DNA from: a phage
NCBI GenBank assembly: GCA_015370545.1
Contig: GCA_015370545.1_3932.1
DNA: 64,000 nucleotides
Reading direction: 5' to 3' (one strand)
The translations under genes were made by a program, and so were the position numbers. This document shows, in pieces, positions 50,656 through 53,525 of the stretch (positions within the stretch are counted from its first letter, which is position 1; each line of letters begins with the position of its first letter). Below the pieces are notes generated by a model. That model was not told the DNA's origin. It was given only the letters and a program-made list of their open reading frames with translations, and did no database searches.

Positions 50656-50919
50656 ATGGAAAACGTAGAATTAACCACACTTTTACAAATTGCAACCGAC
50701 AAAGAAGATGTAGCATTATTCCACCGTATCGAAAGCGATTTGTTCAATGGTGAAATCATTAAAGAATCTTACGAAGTTGTCGGATTCAAAGATGGTAAAG
50801 CATTTGGCTTTTTTGACCTCGACAAAAGCAAAGCGGTTACAATGTACGATGTTCTATCTTGTGAAATTCTGACAAAATACAACGAAAAAAGGCTTGCAAC
50901 CTACGCCAATATGCAGTAA
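50656..50919 (+). CDS. small cassette protein 12
   Basis: 87-aa ORF. Confidence 0.55.
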   Translation: MENVELTTLLQIATDKEDVALFHRIESDLFNGEIIKESYEVVGFKDGKAFGFFDLDKSKAVTMYDVLSCEILTKYNEKRLATYANMQ

Positions 50920-50986
50920 ATTACTAATCAACGGGGAGGGAATGACCTTCCCACTAAACAAAGTCCTAAACTGGAGAATCTAAATT
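50894..50986 (+). promoter_or_regulatory. promoter + conserved 5' hairpin leader + RBS
   Basis: TTGCAA-18 nt-TAAATT then CAACGGGGAGGGAATGACCTTCCC hairpin. Confidence 0.5.
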
Positions 50987-51235
50987 ATGTCAACTATCCG
51001 CGTAACTGTTAATGCTTATGGCTGCCACAAACTTGATGCAAAATTCGATATCGGTGGAACAGATAACACCTTTGACCTTATCAAAATGCTGATTCAGCAG
51101 GTGATACCAGATTATAACCCTACTGATGACTTCTGGAAAGATGCCGTAAAAGAAGCCATAAACGAGGAATCTCACTACCATTATTGGGGTGACTTGATTG
51201 TCTCTCTATACTACAGCAAACAAGGCTACAACTAA
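50987..51235 (+). CDS. small cassette protein 13
   Basis: 82-aa ORF. Confidence 0.55.
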   Translation: MSTIRVTVNAYGCHKLDAKFDIGGTDNTFDLIKMLIQQVIPDYNPTDDFWKDAVKEAINEESHYHYWGDLIVSLYYSKQGYN

Positions 51236-51273
51236 TCGACGCAACGGGGCTAAATAGCCCCAGATACCTTTAC

Positions 51274-51296
51274 AGCCCCTTAAATGGGGCTTTTTT
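51274..51296 (+). terminator. rho-independent terminator ending the cassette array
   Basis: AGCCCC-TTAAAT-GGGGCT followed by TTTTTT; preceded by a second GGGGCTAAATAGCCCC hairpin. Confidence 0.65.
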
Positions 51297-51299
51297 ACG

Positions 51300-52860
51300 T
51301 CTATCGAATCCTTATACAATCCCTTTCCCTTTCCTTTCTAGAATCTTATCAGACCTTAAAAAGCAATAACTCTATAGTCTACTCTATAACCTCTTATCAA
51401 ATCAACTTAAATATAAGCCAATAACCCCAGAAAGGGGATGGCCCATTAAAACGCTCTATAAAGCTCTATAACAGCCTTATCAACCTAACTTAAGCAATCA
51501 TATTAACCCACTCTAAAAAGCCCTTTATAGAGCTTCCCAGAGCCTTAAAAGAATCTTATAAGGGTGAAAGCTTATAGGCTGGCTAGTATCTTGTGAATAA
51601 CTAAACAATCCCCTTGATAGTCACTAAAAAGCATGTTATAGGGGCTATAAAGTTACTTCAAAGTAACGTAAAAAAGGCTATAAAGTTACGTAAATGCTAG
51701 CCCCCTTAACATTTTCTTAACAATTTCTTAACAATCCCTACATAGTTATGCTTGTTAGAGACTTGTTAGCCCCTTGTTAAATCTCTGTTACAACCATGTA
51801 AAAGCCTTGTAAGAACCTTTGACATAGCCTTAAAAGCCCTGTAAAGCCCTATAAAGAGCTATCCATACAGTTGGGCTGTAGTTACTAGGGAGAGACTTAA
51901 AAGGGGCTATACAGAGCTATAGAGGGCTTTTAAGAGGTATGTTTAAAGAATCACTAAGAATCAAAGGGAACGATAAGAAAAGAGATAGTGACCATGTTAA
52001 TAGCTTGTTAAAAAGATTAAACACTTGTTAGAAACTTGTTAATTATCCCTACAAAATAACTCTTTAAAATTAACTTGTTAGCTCTTGTTAGTCATCTGTT
52101 AAGACTCTGTAAAGACTATTCAGCACTTGTTAGAAAACTGTTAAGTTCTTGTTAGTTCTGTTAAGAAACTGTTAAGACCTTTGGAGAGTTGTTAAGAGCT
52201 TGAGAGAGTTGTTAAGAGATTGTTAAGGATATTTTAAAATTCTGCAAAGTACTTGTAAGGGAGCTGTTAAGGGCTACCAAGCAGATATACATCTTCTACA
52301 GATATTTTTCAGTTCCTTCAAAGACCCTAAAAAATGACTTGATAGCCCTATTTTATAAAAATTTTAAAATTCTGAATAATTACCTAGACAGTCTTTTAAA
52401 AATACAGGTAGAAACAGGCTTATAAGATACCTTGTTAGTACCGTGTTAGACCTTGTGAGATAAGGTCTGTGAAGATATTCCTGTTAAGTTTGTTAAAACA
52501 GTCTATATAGAGGCTTAGTAGTACCTAGTGAACATCTATAGAGGGTATCATAGCTAACCTAGAGATTAAGAGGTGTATAGGGGCTTCTAAGAGGGTATAG
52601 AGAGATGGTTAAGGTGATTGTATAGGTTGTTAAGAAGGATTGTTAGAAGAGTGTTTAGAGGGCTATTTAGAAGGGTTATACAGAGGGCTATTAAGACCAC
52701 TAGATAGTTACTAAGATACTATATAGTACTATATAACTATATAGAGAGTAAGATTAAGAAGGTTGTTAAGAAGGATAGATATCTTATTCACATATGATGG
52801 TGACCCAGAGGTTGGGACAACCGATAAAATTTTATAAAAATATAAATTTCGTAAATTTTA
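51300..52860. repeat. ORF-free iteron-rich region (candidate origin or packaging/regulatory locus)
   Basis: no ORF of 60 aa or more; dozens of (C/T)TGTTA(A/G) units at about 10-11 bp spacing (densest 52010-52260); repeated TATA(A/C)AG(A/C)GCTAT and GGCTATAAAGTTAC units; ACTATATA triple near 52720. Confidence 0.6.
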
Positions 52861-52901
52861 CTCAATAAAAAGCCCCCAATTAAGGAGGCTCTTAAGATAT
52901 T

Positions 52902-53525
52902 TTAAATCAGTGTTTCCAGAACTGTTTTTAGTGATGACTTGGTTGTCTGATAAAAATGAGTAAAGCCGTTGTTGTTATCAAATACCTGCATCATGATATC
53001 ATCTCCCTTGATTGGGTACACTCGGATATCATAGTGAAAACCATTAAAGACACAAGAGCCATTACAGAATGCACTAAAGTCATCCACTGAGATATACTCT
53101 TCATGTCCTGTGATTTTTATACAGATACCTTTACTCGGTCTCTTAGGATTAATATCTTCCATCACAGACATATTCTGTCCGCCAAGAGATACCATAGTGA
53201 CCACTTTACGGTTCTTCTGTCTAAAGTACATTTTAACTTTCTGCAAAGTGTCTTCATAGAACGGATAAGACTTCTCTACAAAGATTCCTTCAAGTGGCTC
53301 TTTACCATTTTCAACTTCTCTGTTATGCCGTACTGCAAAGATAATTTGTTCGAACCAGTCAAGATTTTCTTCGGAGAGTGCTTCTCGAATATCCTTCCAG
53401 TCAAGGACTAGATAGTTACCTTCAACTTCTTTTAAGTTATCTTTTTCCATGTTTATCACACCATTATCGTAAAACTTGATATTCTGGTACTGCGAATTTA
53501 TTACTGTTGTTCTTGATGAGGTCAT
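52902..53525 (-). CDS. hypothetical protein
   Basis: 207-aa ORF. Confidence 0.45.
   Translation of the reverse strand: MTSSRTTVINSQYQNIKFYDNGVINMEKDNLKEVEGNYLVLDWKDIREALSEENLDWFEQIIFAVRHNREVENGKEPLEGIFVEKSYPFYEDTLQKVKMYFRQKNRKVVTMVSLGGQNMSVMEDINPKRPSKGICIKITGHEEYISVDDFSAFCNGSCVFNGFHYDIRVYPIKGDDIMMQVFDNNNGFTHFYQTTKSSLKTVLETLI

What the first reader, a model, noticed from the sequence alone, without database searches (positions are those of the whole stretch)
51300..52860. 1.6-kb ORF-free region packed with helically phased TGTTA(A/G) iterons and other direct repeats
Between the convergent cassette island and the minus-strand block there is no ORF of 60 aa or more. The DNA contains dozens of (C/T)TGTTA(A/G) units, often 10-11 bp apart (for example ACTTGTTAGAAACTTGTTAAT and AACTGTTAAGTTCTTGTTAGTTCTGTTAAGAAACTGTTAAG), plus repeated TATA(A/C)AG(A/C)GCTAT, GGCTATAAAGTTAC and ACTATATA units. 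Phased iterons like this are typical of replication origins, packaging sites or partition-like protein-binding arrays; the region could also encode small RNAs.
Basis: seen in the sequence. Interest (0 to 1): 0.7.

Follow-up and report, generated by a model that had tools for sequence, protein, structure and literature searches.

The report
Phage genome-end repeat with phased sites
The ORF-free repeat-packed stretch is where the linear chromosome of a Felix O1-like phage begins and ends (its ~580-bp terminal repeat plus flanks), and its phased TGTTA repeats look exactly like binding sites for the host regulator ArcA, which has not been reported and can be tested.

Summary
Window 51236-52901 has no ORF over 46 aa and holds 29 of the window's 137 TGTTAR copies, mostly 11 bp apart.

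The window is a Felixounavirus (Felix O1-like myophage). The gap is its genome-end region. Positions 51700-52278 are the single, assembly-collapsed copy of the direct terminal repeat (DTR). Six deposited relatives start at exactly this nucleotide. Two carry or annotate a 581-613-bp DTR that aligns to these coordinates. The ends of a congener were mapped experimentally.

The TGTTAR units lie almost entirely inside the DTR and reach both cut sites. They are more conserved than their spacers. Units are gained or lost in 11- or 22-bp steps. The array survives in Kolesnikvirus and a Pectobacterium phage, where the rest of the gap has diverged.

The gap is 83-85% identical between genera; the flanking genes are 65-68%.

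New lead: the array matches the E. coli ArcA-P site (TGTTA direct repeats, 11 bp apart). Nine boxes score at least 15 bits, and two score 22.5-22.7, above every box used to build the matrix. Binding is untested, and a Cellulophaga-phage-like contig gives similar scores.

Packaging and genome-end reading: supported. Origin: not supported. RNA: no evidence.

The parts
50987..51235 (+). Last gene of the rightward block (82 aa, homologue of Felix O1 ORF23/gp23). On the virion chromosome it is the last gene before the right end.
   Evidence: ORF list. Felix O1 annotation. PHROG 4559, function unknown. No Pfam domain. Felix O1 gp23 (9.7 kDa) was detected in virions by mass spectrometry (PMC3185647).
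51274..51299 (+). Intrinsic terminator that closes the rightward gene block.
   Evidence: AGCCCCTTAAATGGGGCT followed by TTTTTT.
51300..51699 (.). Subterminal non-coding flank that lies just inside the right-end repeat copy on the virion chromosome. It is C-rich on the + strand (GC skew -0.27) and carries CTCTATA, CTATAAAG and GGCTATAAAGTTAC repeats.
   Evidence: Composition and k-mer counts. CTATANAG family. 85% per-site identity within the genus and 75% to Mooglevirus/Suspvirus.
51700..52278 (.). Direct terminal repeat (DTR), 579 bp, present once in this permuted assembly.
   Evidence: The annotated 581-bp DTR of Pr103Blw aligns end to end to 51700-52278 at 92.3% identity. Ro111lw carries an exact 613-bp repeat at both record ends that maps here. 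Six records begin at the homologue of 51700. The annotated DTR of UAB_69 agrees within 2 nt. 27 records hold two copies. The window holds a single copy.
51700..51735 (-). Left DTR edge: GCCCCC followed by three CTTAACA units 11 bp apart (TGTTAAG on the - strand, reading towards the end). These are the two best ArcA-box matches in the window.
   Evidence: Positions. PWM scores of 22.7 and 22.5 bits at 51706 and 51717. Nearly invariant across three genera. The same layout occurs in Moogle, SUSP2, ESh21, KPS64, SB18 and L112.
51752..51816 (+). First + strand array: TGTTAG, TGTTAG, TGTTAA, then degenerate TGTTAC, TGTAAA and TGTAAG units, all 11 bp apart.
   Evidence: direct-repeat elements at 51752, 51774, 51785, 51796, 51807.
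51829..51934 (.). Central DTR segment without TGTTAR. It holds AAAGCCC and CTATANAG units and an imperfect inverted repeat.
   Evidence: Repeat families D2, D3 and inverted repeat I5. CTATANAG at 51849, 51907, 51917. The inverted-repeat arms change without compensation in other genera, so a hairpin is not supported.
51994..52271 (+). Main array of 16 TGTTAR units, phased at 10.25 bp and reading towards the right DTR edge.
   Evidence: Positions and spacing. Phasing test. Seven ArcA-box matches of 14-19 bits. 52167-52249 is the only part of the gap that still matches Kolesnikvirus and Arno18 by blastn.
52264..52291 (.). Right DTR edge and cut-site context: TGTTAAGGGCTACC|AAGCAGATATACA.
   Evidence: DTR ends of Ro111lw, Pr103Blw and UAB_69. 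The block is invariant in Felixounavirus, Mooglevirus and Suspvirus. AAGCAGATATACA follows the record end of Hafnia phage SPARTY when mapped on SB18.
52279..52860 (.). Subterminal non-coding flank that lies just inside the left-end repeat copy. It is G-rich (GC skew +0.29) and carries TATAGAG and ACTATATAG repeats, a few more TGTTAR copies, and AT-rich stretches at 52340-52400 and 52825-52870.
   Evidence: 90% identity within the genus. It shares 7-8-mers with the DTR in direct orientation (z = 5-6).
52873..52887 (-). Intrinsic terminator that closes the leftward gene block.
   Evidence: CTCCTTAATTGGGGG followed by CTTTTT on the - strand.
52902..53525 (-). First gene of the leftward block (207 aa, Felix O1 ORF24 homologue), transcribed towards the left genome end.
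   Evidence: PHROG 4330, function unknown. No Pfam domain.

Best explanation
The 1.67-kb ORF-free gap is the genome-end (concatemer-junction) region of a Felix O1-like phage.

Positions 51700-52278 are the direct terminal repeat. In the virion this repeat is present at both ends of the linear chromosome. In replicating concatemers, and in this circularly permuted assembly, it is present once. The two flanks (51300-51699 and 52279-52860) are the subterminal leaders of the right and left chromosome ends. Both neighbouring gene blocks terminate facing them.

The TGTTA(A/G) units are phased protein-binding sites. There are about 22 per repeat, all on one face of the helix. Three inverted copies lie at the left edge and the main array runs to the right edge, so each chromosome end shows the same polarity.

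I infer that a protein which binds direct repeats 11 bp apart coats and bends the repeat. This nucleoprotein complex would mark the two boundary sequences (TA|GCCCCCTTAACA and TGTTAAGGGCTACC|AAGCAGATATAC) where the terminase cuts. The repeat would then be duplicated during packaging, as in T7-type DTR phages. The complex may also shield the ends after injection.

The best candidate binder is the host response regulator ArcA-P, whose site definition the array meets. I give that about 0.3. Otherwise the binder is an unidentified phage protein.

Shown: the location of the ends, the clustering, the phasing, the conservation and the match to the ArcA matrix. Inferred: that a protein binds, which protein it is, and that the role is in cutting or end function.
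For: Identity of the phage and region: 256 phage records match the region. All but one are enterobacterial phages with Felix O1-type names and the best identity is about 91%. In Felix O1 the homologous stretch is the unannotated gap between ORF23 and ORF24.

Genome ends:
- Ro111lw has an exact 613-bp repeat at both record ends, mapping to window 51700-52278. Its PhageTerm result is published (PMC6454146).
- The annotated 581-bp DTR of Pr103Blw aligns to the same coordinates (PMC8303462).
- Six records start at the same nucleotide.
- UAB_69 has a DTR annotated here.
- Bal31 digestion and run-off sequencing gave a 608-bp DTR in the congener UAB_Phi87 (PMC4837284).
- 27 records hold two copies.

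Functional constraint:
- Inside the DTR, motif positions are 94% conserved in Mooglevirus/Suspvirus against 75% for spacers. None of 20000 random placements reaches this.
- Between genera the gap is 83-85% identical, while the flanking genes are 65-68%.
- DTR indels are 1 nt, or 10-11 nt, or 20-23 nt. The unit number stays at 19-23.
- The arrays and both boundary sequences persist in Kolesnikvirus and Arno18, where the remaining gap has diverged.

Phasing: a 10.25-bp period with R = 0.74.

ArcA match:
- A matrix built from 115 ChIP-supported E. coli ArcA boxes (PMC3798270 Table S3) gives 9 boxes of at least 15 bits in the DTR, against 3 in the other 63 kb.
- All six boxes of at least 17 bits are in the DTR. 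The top scores are 22.7 and 22.5, above the 21.5 maximum of the training boxes.
- 12 of the window's 14 TGTTA-N6-TGTTA occurrences are in the DTR.
- The site definition was checked in PMC4173790 and PMC3798270.
- No ArcA homologue is encoded in the window.
- Felix O1 has no recognised small terminase.
Against: - The ends of this particular phage were not measured. They are placed by homology, although the boundary sequences are identical.
- No binding data exist for any protein.
- The role in cutting is inferred from position alone. In Kolesnikvirus the right end has no TGTTAA unit flush with the cut, so the edge symmetry is not universal.
- Against ArcA specifically: a metagenomic contig related to Cellulophaga phages also has triple TGTTA-N6 arrays that score 20-23.7 bits. 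From my own knowledge that host is a Bacteroidota bacterium without an ArcA system; I did not check this here. A matrix match therefore does not prove ArcA binding.
- ArcA binds DNA only when phosphorylated, that is, at low oxygen. From my own knowledge these phages plate well in air, which argues against a strict requirement for ArcA-P.
- The single-repeat matrix is weak in AT-rich DNA, giving only a 3-5-fold enrichment.
- The CTATANAG family and the strongly conserved flanks are not explained by this model.
Confidence: 0.6

Rival explanations
1. Host-factor decoy or physiological sensor. The arrays exist to bind host ArcA-P for its own sake, not for packaging. Hundreds of replicating genomes with about 22 near-consensus sites each would soak up ArcA-P and lift its repression of respiratory and TCA-cycle genes. 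Alternatively they would report host redox state to the phage. Under this reading the position in the terminal repeat is secondary.
For: The ArcA-box scores exceed those of the chromosomal sites used to build the matrix, and the site density is far higher than the 2-5 repeats of natural sites. All hosts named in the matching records are enterobacteria. The window encodes no ArcA homologue. The phage relies on host RNA polymerase (PMC3185647 abstract).
Against: A decoy has no need to be flush with both cut sites, to be confined to the repeat, or to have inverted polarity at the two edges. Similar arrays occur in a Cellulophaga-phage-like contig. Nothing shows that ArcA binds.
Confidence: 0.12
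2. Replication origin. The TGTTAR units are iterons for an initiator, and the AT-rich stretch just right of the repeat (52340-52400) is the unwinding element.
For: Clustered phased direct repeats lie next to 75-80% AT stretches. The region is non-coding yet strongly conserved. There is a local C-rich to G-rich strand switch within the gap.
Against: - No initiator-like or DNA-binding domain is found in the ten flanking genes.
- Only two relaxed DnaA boxes are present, which is no enrichment.
- The large-scale GC skew changes from + to - across the gap. That is the polarity of a terminus rather than an origin, although it is confounded with gene orientation.
- Both gene blocks converge on the gap, so forks leaving it would meet transcription head-on.
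- The arrays coincide exactly with the terminal repeat, which the end function already explains.
Confidence: 0.1
3. Non-functional satellite. The repeats are by-products of replication slippage in dispensable DNA at the chromosome ends, and the ArcA resemblance is coincidence.
For: Indels occur in whole 11- or 22-bp units, as slippage would produce. Within the genus the gap evolves at about the rate of fourfold-degenerate sites of the neighbouring gene (0.896 against 0.859 identity).
Against: Between genera the gap is far more conserved than the flanking genes. Motif positions are conserved over spacers. The unit number is held at 19-23. The array survives in Kolesnikvirus and Arno18.
Confidence: 0.06
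4. Hidden genes: small proteins or non-coding RNAs are encoded in the gap.
For: A few ORFs of 30-46 aa exist, and some depositors annotated short hypothetical proteins here.
Against: No ORF is conserved, and three homologues have none of 30 aa or more. There is no Rfam match below E = 0.37, and every score is well under its gathering threshold. Only 9-of-12 promoter-like matches occur, and they arise because TTAACA resembles TTGACA. Terminators face inward. The central inverted repeat lacks compensatory changes.
Confidence: 0.04

Closest known systems
Short exact direct terminal repeats of T7-type phages (concatemer junction cut and duplicated by terminase)
   Same: A repeat of a few hundred bp at both ends of a non-permuted linear chromosome. 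There is one copy per junction. Assemblers collapse it into the middle of a contig (PMC10438801). The ends are fixed at a unique nucleotide. The same class was assigned to Felix O1-like phages by PhageTerm and by Bal31 mapping.
   Different: - The repeat is longer (567-658 bp against 160-180 bp in T7-like phages).
- It sits between two gene blocks that are transcribed towards the ends, not at the head of an early operon.
- It is filled with about 22 phased copies of one motif that reach both cut sites.
- No small terminase is recognised in Felix O1.
- From memory, and not checked here: T7 has short repeat arrays beside its terminal repeat rather than inside it.
ArcA-P binding sites of Enterobacterales (ArcA box, OmpR/PhoB-family direct repeats)
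   Same: The TGTTA core, direct-repeat orientation, 11-bp (also 22-bp) centre-to-centre spacing, an A-rich 3' half and multiple adjacent repeats are all shared. The left-edge box TTGTTAAGAAAATGTTAA differs from the matrix consensus TTGTTAATAAAATGTTAA at one position.
   Different: Chromosomal sites have 2-5 repeats at promoters and act in transcription. Here about 22 repeats lie in promoter-less DNA at a phage chromosome end. Binding is untested.
Terminase-recognition arrays at cos and pac sites (lambda cosB with IHF, SPP1 pacL/pacR), recalled from memory
   Same: Several phased binding sites next to the cut site would build a bent nucleoprotein complex. In lambda a host architectural protein (IHF) takes part, which is the precedent for a host factor such as ArcA.
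   Different: Those systems have a known small terminase that binds the repeats, and they give cohesive or headful ends, not an exact duplicated repeat. No IHF consensus is present in the gap.
Large repeat-rich non-coding region in the T5 terminal repeat (proposed injection stop signal), recalled from memory
   Same: A kilobase-scale ORF-free stretch full of direct and inverted repeats, associated with a terminal repeat.
   Different: In T5 it lies at the inner end of a 10-kb repeat that carries pre-early genes. Here no gene lies between the chromosome end and the repeats, so there is nothing for a first transfer step to express.

Membership tests
Short exact DTR genome end (T7-type packaging class) | The same sequence is present at both ends of the virion DNA. 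| tested here: met
   Met by homology. Ro111lw positions 1-613 equal 86338-86950 exactly and map to window 51700-52278. 27 records carry two copies. Bal31 and run-off sequencing were done in UAB_Phi87. This phage's own virion DNA cannot be tested with these tools.
Short exact DTR genome end (T7-type packaging class) | The ends are unique and non-permuted, at a fixed nucleotide. | tested here: met
   Six independently deposited records begin with GCCCCCTTAACATT..., which is window 51700. The right ends of Ro111lw and Pr103Blw both read ...GGGCTACC, and UAB_69 differs by 2 nt.
Short exact DTR genome end (T7-type packaging class) | There is one copy at the concatemer junction or in a collapsed assembly. 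| tested here: met
   The 579-bp segment matches only itself in the 64-kb window.
Short exact DTR genome end (T7-type packaging class) | The large terminase belongs to a DTR-generating clade. | not tested
   TerL lies outside the window. The literature places Felix O1-type TerL in a DTR cluster (PMC4837284).
ArcA-P binding site (ArcA box) | Two or more direct repeats with a TGTTA core, 11 bp centre to centre. | tested here: met
   12 TGTTA-N6-TGTTA occurrences lie in the DTR, out of 14 in the window. The definition comes from PMC4173790 and PMC3798270.
ArcA-P binding site (ArcA box) | The score with the 18-bp matrix falls within the range of ChIP-supported boxes (9-21 bits, mean about 15). | tested here: met
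   Nine boxes of at least 15 bits and six of at least 17 bits lie in the DTR, with a maximum of 22.7. The same holds for eight relatives from five lineages. The matrix was rebuilt by me from 115 of the 128 published boxes.
ArcA-P binding site (ArcA box) | The match is specific to phages whose hosts have ArcA. | tested here: inconclusive
   All Ounavirinae hosts named in the records are enterobacteria. However, a contig related to Cellulophaga phages also reaches 20-23.7 bits.
ArcA-P binding site (ArcA box) | Phosphorylation-dependent binding by ArcA in vitro or in vivo. | not testable with these tools
   This needs EMSA or footprinting, or ChIP in infected cells.
Iteron-type replication origin | The initiator gene is adjacent to or overlaps the iterons. 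| tested here: not met
   The ten flanking genes have no Pfam domain above threshold, and their PHROGs have unknown function.
Iteron-type replication origin | An AT-rich unwinding element lies beside the iterons. | tested here: inconclusive
   52360-52399 is 80% AT and 52040-52079 is 80% AT, but the whole gap is 55-80% AT.
Iteron-type replication origin | DnaA boxes are present, or the strand skew has origin polarity. | tested here: not met
   Two relaxed DnaA boxes occur in the gap, out of 7 in the window. The large-scale GC skew changes from + to - across the gap, though this is confounded by gene orientation.
Iteron-type replication origin | Replication initiates here. | not testable with these tools
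   This needs marker-frequency analysis or 2D gels.
Known non-coding RNA family | A match to an Rfam covariance model at the gathering score. | tested here: not met
   The best hits have E = 0.37-0.77 and score far below their gathering thresholds.

The most novel reading that the evidence does not exclude
A whole subfamily of virulent enterobacterial phages (Ounavirinae) builds its chromosome ends out of super-consensus binding sites for the host redox response regulator ArcA. ArcA-P would then serve as the architectural or recognition factor for cutting or protecting the ends, possibly standing in for the missing small terminase. Packaging or end stability would thereby be tied to host oxygen status. 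This would be the first case of a two-component response regulator recruited to a phage terminal repeat.
Probability: 0.25. Interest if true: 0.8.

Novelty: new member of a known kind. Interest (0 to 1): 0.5.

Why it matters
Practical value: most of the roughly 250 deposited Felix O1-like genomes leave this stretch blank or fill it with spurious small ORFs. It can instead be annotated as the terminal repeat, with exact boundaries taken from two invariant edge sequences. That also fixes the true gene order of the virion chromosome.

Biological value: how DTR phages without a recognisable small terminase find their cut sites is an open question. Here the cut sites are embedded in a conserved, helically phased array whose sequence points to a specific candidate protein that can be purified, ArcA-P. 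Gel shifts, plating on arcA mutants with and without oxygen, and motif-mutant phages would settle it. Several members of this group are described in the papers read here as candidates for phage therapy or food biocontrol. An oxygen- or ArcA-dependent step in their growth would be relevant for use in the gut.

Tried and rejected
- Rfam scan of 50900-53000 at permissive E-values gave only chance-level hits.
- The promoter scan gave only 9-of-12 matches inside the gap, caused by TTAACA resembling TTGACA. I rejected promoters as an explanation.
- The central inverted repeat (51829-51840 and 51923-51934) was considered as a hairpin for repeat duplication. Its arms change without compensation in Mooglevirus, so I rejected it.
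- Dyad symmetry between the two flanks is only weak (z about 2).
- There is no Chi site and no IHF consensus in the gap.
- PmrA/BasR, CpxR and PhoB-type direct repeats have zero matches in the DTR.
- A search for a phage-encoded ArcA or OmpR-family protein among 555 six-frame ORFs found nothing better than E = 0.5.
- Pfam and PHROGs searches of the ten flanking genes were uninformative.
It yielded only one more Kolesnikvirus contig end (L112) and the cautionary Cellulophaga-phage-like contig.
- Literature: the Felix O1 genome paper, a Felixounavirus comparative paper and the UAB_Phi87 paper do not describe the gap or its motifs. No paper in the library links ArcA with these phages. One search returned nothing relevant.
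- The PhageMaP Bas63 preprint was checked for intergenic fitness data near the repeat, and none was reported in the text.
Full report
What is there. The stretch between the stop codon of the last + strand gene (51235) and that of the first - strand gene (52902) has no ORF longer than 46 aa. It is bracketed by two intrinsic terminators that face inward, at 51274-51291 on the + strand and 52887-52873 on the - strand. TGTTAR occurs 26 times on the + strand within 51300-52860, which is 16.7 per kb against 0.86 per kb elsewhere. It occurs three more times as CTTAACA on the other strand. The count for the whole window is not above chance (137 against 128.6 +/- 10.3), so the signal is local clustering only. 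Ten of 25 successive distances are exactly 11 bp. A second repeat family, CTATANAG, is also real: 26 copies against 8.6 expected, 15 of them in the gap.

What the window is. The region matches 256 phage records, the best at about 91% identity. All but one are enterobacterial phages with Felix O1-type names. In Felix O1 the homologous stretch is the unannotated gap between ORF23 and ORF24. The Felix O1 genome paper does not describe the gap and only infers 'short terminal repeats' from genome size.

The chromosome ends are here. In the hit tables several records begin inside the query, at query position 401, which is window 51700. Ro111lw carries an exact 613-bp repeat at both ends of its record, and this repeat maps to window 51700-52278. 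Its authors obtained it with PhageTerm (PMC6454146). Pr103Blw has an annotated 581-bp 'short direct terminal repeat' that aligns end to end to 51700-52278 at 92% identity (PMC8303462). Six records from different laboratories start at the identical nucleotide with GCCCCCTTAACATT... The right ends read ...TGTTAAGGGCTACC, followed in the genome by AAGCAGATATAC. UAB_69 has a 'DTR' feature at the same place, within 2 nt. The same laboratory mapped a 608-bp repeat in the congener UAB_Phi87 by Bal31 digestion and run-off sequencing (PMC4837284). When the 579-bp segment is used as the query, 27 records hold two copies. The window holds one copy, as expected when an assembler collapses the two terminal copies and opens the circle elsewhere (PMC10438801). 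So 51700-52278 is the direct terminal repeat, and 51300-51699 and 52279-52860 are the subterminal leaders of the right and left chromosome ends.

Anatomy of the repeat. Of the 29 TGTTAR copies in the gap, 22 lie in the repeat. The left edge is GCCCCC followed by three CTTAACA units 11 bp apart; these are TGTTAAG reading towards the left end. From 51752 onwards all units read towards the right end, and the last one ends 8 nt before the right cut. Each virion end therefore shows 5'-...TGTTAAGGG(GG)C...-3' in the same polarity, and the two boundaries form an imperfect inverted repeat: TA|GCCCCCTTAACA on the left and, for the complement of the right end, TT|GGTAGCCCTTAACA. The main array (51994-52271) keeps a common helical phase over 280 bp, with a 10.25-bp period and R = 0.74; none of 5000 random placements reaches this. 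The middle of the repeat (51829-51934) has CTATANAG and AAAGCCC units instead.

Evidence of constraint. I aligned 27 distinct homologous gaps: 23 Felixounavirus, counting the window itself, plus Moogle, SUSP2, ESh21 and KPS64.
- All 27 are ORF-free.
- Within the genus the gap changes at about the rate of fourfold-degenerate sites of the neighbouring gene (0.896 against 0.859 identity), which alone shows little.
- Between genera the gap is 83-85% identical over about 1600 aligned positions, while the two flanking protein genes are only 65-68% identical.
- Inside the repeat, motif positions are 94% conserved in the other genera and spacer positions 75%. None of 20000 random placements of 22 hexamers reaches that value.
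- Indels in the repeat are 1 nt, or 10-11 nt, or 20-23 nt. The repeat length varies from 567 to 658 bp while the unit number stays at 19-23 on the + strand. These counts come from non-independent pairwise comparisons.
- The edge blocks are invariant across three genera.

Deeper relatives. A sensitive blastn search finds Erwinia, Hafnia and Salmonella Kolesnikvirus phages and Pectobacterium phage Arno18. They match only window 52167-52249, the densest part of the array, and the match lies near their record ends. These phages have the same layout: convergent gene blocks, an ORF-free gap of about 1.4 kb, inverted TTAACA units on the left and a TGTTAAG array on the right. Erwinia phage Prophecy starts at AGCCACTTTTACATTTCGTTAACA. 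Hafnia phage SPARTY ends at ...CCACT, and on the collapsed SB18 genome this is followed by AAGCAGATATAC. Both boundaries are therefore homologous to those of the window, and the repeat is about 440 bp. An IMG/VR Kolesnikvirus contig also starts 2 nt before that left boundary. The repeats in the flanks differ between genera. In Kolesnikvirus the right edge has no unit flush with the cut, so the edge symmetry is not universal.

What binds the array. TGTTA direct repeats 11 bp apart are the published definition of the site for phosphorylated ArcA, an OmpR/PhoB-family response regulator. That definition is two 10-bp repeats ATGTTAAAAA at 11 bp centre to centre, with TGTTA as the conserved core. 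Most sites have 3-5 repeats at 11 or 22 bp, and binding is cooperative and bends DNA (PMC4173790 and PMC3798270).

I rebuilt the 18-bp matrix from the 115 boxes readable in Table S3 of that paper and scanned the window.
- Of 12 hits of at least 15 bits in 64 kb, nine are in the 579-bp repeat.
- All six hits of at least 17 bits are in the repeat.
- The two left-edge boxes score 22.7 and 22.5 bits, above the best training box (21.5). One of them differs from the consensus at a single position.
- The same confinement holds in Felix O1, UAB_69, Moogle, SUSP2, ESh21, KPS64, SB18 and Arno18, with scores up to 23.4 bits, always starting about 7 nt from the left boundary where that boundary is known.
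- Direct repeats of the PmrA, CpxR and PhoB types are absent from the DTR.
- The window encodes no ArcA-like protein, and the ten genes nearest the gap have no recognisable domain.
- The library holds no paper that connects ArcA with these phages.

Cautions on ArcA.
- A contig related to Cellulophaga phages carries triple arrays that score 20-23.7 bits. From my own knowledge that host has no ArcA system; I did not check this here. The matrix match is therefore not proof.
- ArcA binds only when phosphorylated, while from my own knowledge these phages grow in aerated culture.
- The single-repeat matrix is weakly discriminating in AT-rich DNA.
I put host ArcA-P as the binder at about 0.25-0.3.

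Mechanism. What is shown: the ends lie at the borders of the array-filled repeat, and the arrays are phased, conserved and kept in whole-turn units. What is inferred: a protein that binds direct repeats coats one face of the repeat, and this complex positions or licenses the terminase at the two invariant edge sequences. If the enzyme nicks the strand that reads ...|GCCC(CC)TTAACA at each edge, the nicks fall on opposite strands. They would leave recessed 3' ends that can be extended to duplicate the repeat. That is the standard model for T7-type phages, which I recall from established knowledge and did not test here. Felix O1 has only a large terminase recognised, which leaves room for another recognition factor. 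End protection after injection is an alternative or additional role for the same complex.

Rivals.
- A pure ArcA decoy or sensor would not need flush edges or confinement to the repeat.
- An origin is not excluded, but it lacks an adjacent initiator and DnaA-box enrichment, and the large-scale skew has the wrong polarity.
- Neutral slippage DNA is contradicted by the between-genus conservation.
- RNA or small-protein genes find no support.

Comparison with what is known. The region is a member of the short exact DTR class. The features of that class that I could test are met by homology. The terminase clade was not tested because TerL lies outside the window. The DTR of this genus is already published. 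What I did not find described is its internal architecture and the ArcA-type identity of its repeats. I therefore rate the finding as a new member of a known kind that carries an untested but specific new lead.

Unexplained. I cannot say what the CTATANAG family does. I also cannot say why both flanks, especially the right one at 90% identity within the genus, are kept so well. The location of the replication origin is still unknown.

Noticed in passing
window 1-64000: GATC is completely absent: 0 matches against 185.6 +/- 12.2 expected from dinucleotide-preserving shuffles. Many 6-bp palindromes are also absent, for example CTGCAG (0 against 20.8), ATGCAT (0 against 15.6) and CAGCTG (0 against 13.1). 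This is broad avoidance of restriction, Dam, SeqA and MutH sites.
   Followed up: partly
window 50987-51235 (+): The 82-aa protein encoded right next to the right chromosome end is the homologue of Felix O1 gp23. That protein was found in purified virions by mass spectrometry although it lies far from the structural gene block (PMC3185647). It has no Pfam domain. It could be a DNA-end-associated or ejected protein.
   Followed up: partly
L127:6290-9230 (IMGVR_UViG_3300032607_001506, related to Cellulophaga phages): Several intergenic triple arrays of TTAACA/TGTTA at 11-bp spacing score 20-23.7 bits with the E. coli ArcA matrix. From my own knowledge the presumed host is a Bacteroidota bacterium. 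This is a convergent motif of unknown meaning and a caution for the ArcA reading.
   Followed up: partly
window 51370-52744: A second repeat family, CTATANAG (with CTCTATA on the left flank and TATAGAG on the right), has 15 of its 26 window copies in the gap against 8.6 expected for the whole window. Several copies are invariant across genera: 51370, 52503 and 52719. Its function is unknown.
   Followed up: partly
window 52281-52306: Immediately outside the right repeat boundary, CAGATAT occurs twice 18 bp apart within a block that is 92-97% conserved. Its first copy belongs to the AAGCAGATATACA motif that is also kept in Kolesnikvirus. It is a candidate part of the terminase cut-site recognition sequence.
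   Followed up: no
L037:1200-1560 and 2290-2480 (Salmonella phage SB18, Kolesnikvirus): The subterminal flanks of Kolesnikvirus carry their own repeat families (CTTCTAA on the left; GTTAAGA and CTTCTCAG on the right) in place of the CTCTATA/TATAGAG family of Felixounavirus, while the array inside the repeat is shared.
   Followed up: no
window 62557-63972: A cluster of eight tRNA genes (Pro, Glu, Met, Asn, Tyr, Asp, Lys, Met) lies on the + strand, as expected for Felix O1-like phages.
   Followed up: no
public records matched: Several deposited genomes annotate short 'hypothetical proteins' of 25-54 aa inside the terminal repeat or its flanks (for example H12 CDS0001 and CDS0002, UAB_69 gp027 and gp028, and ESh21). 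None is conserved, so they are probably over-predictions. A few records also label these linear DTR genomes as circular (NBSal004 and NBEco005).
   Followed up: partly
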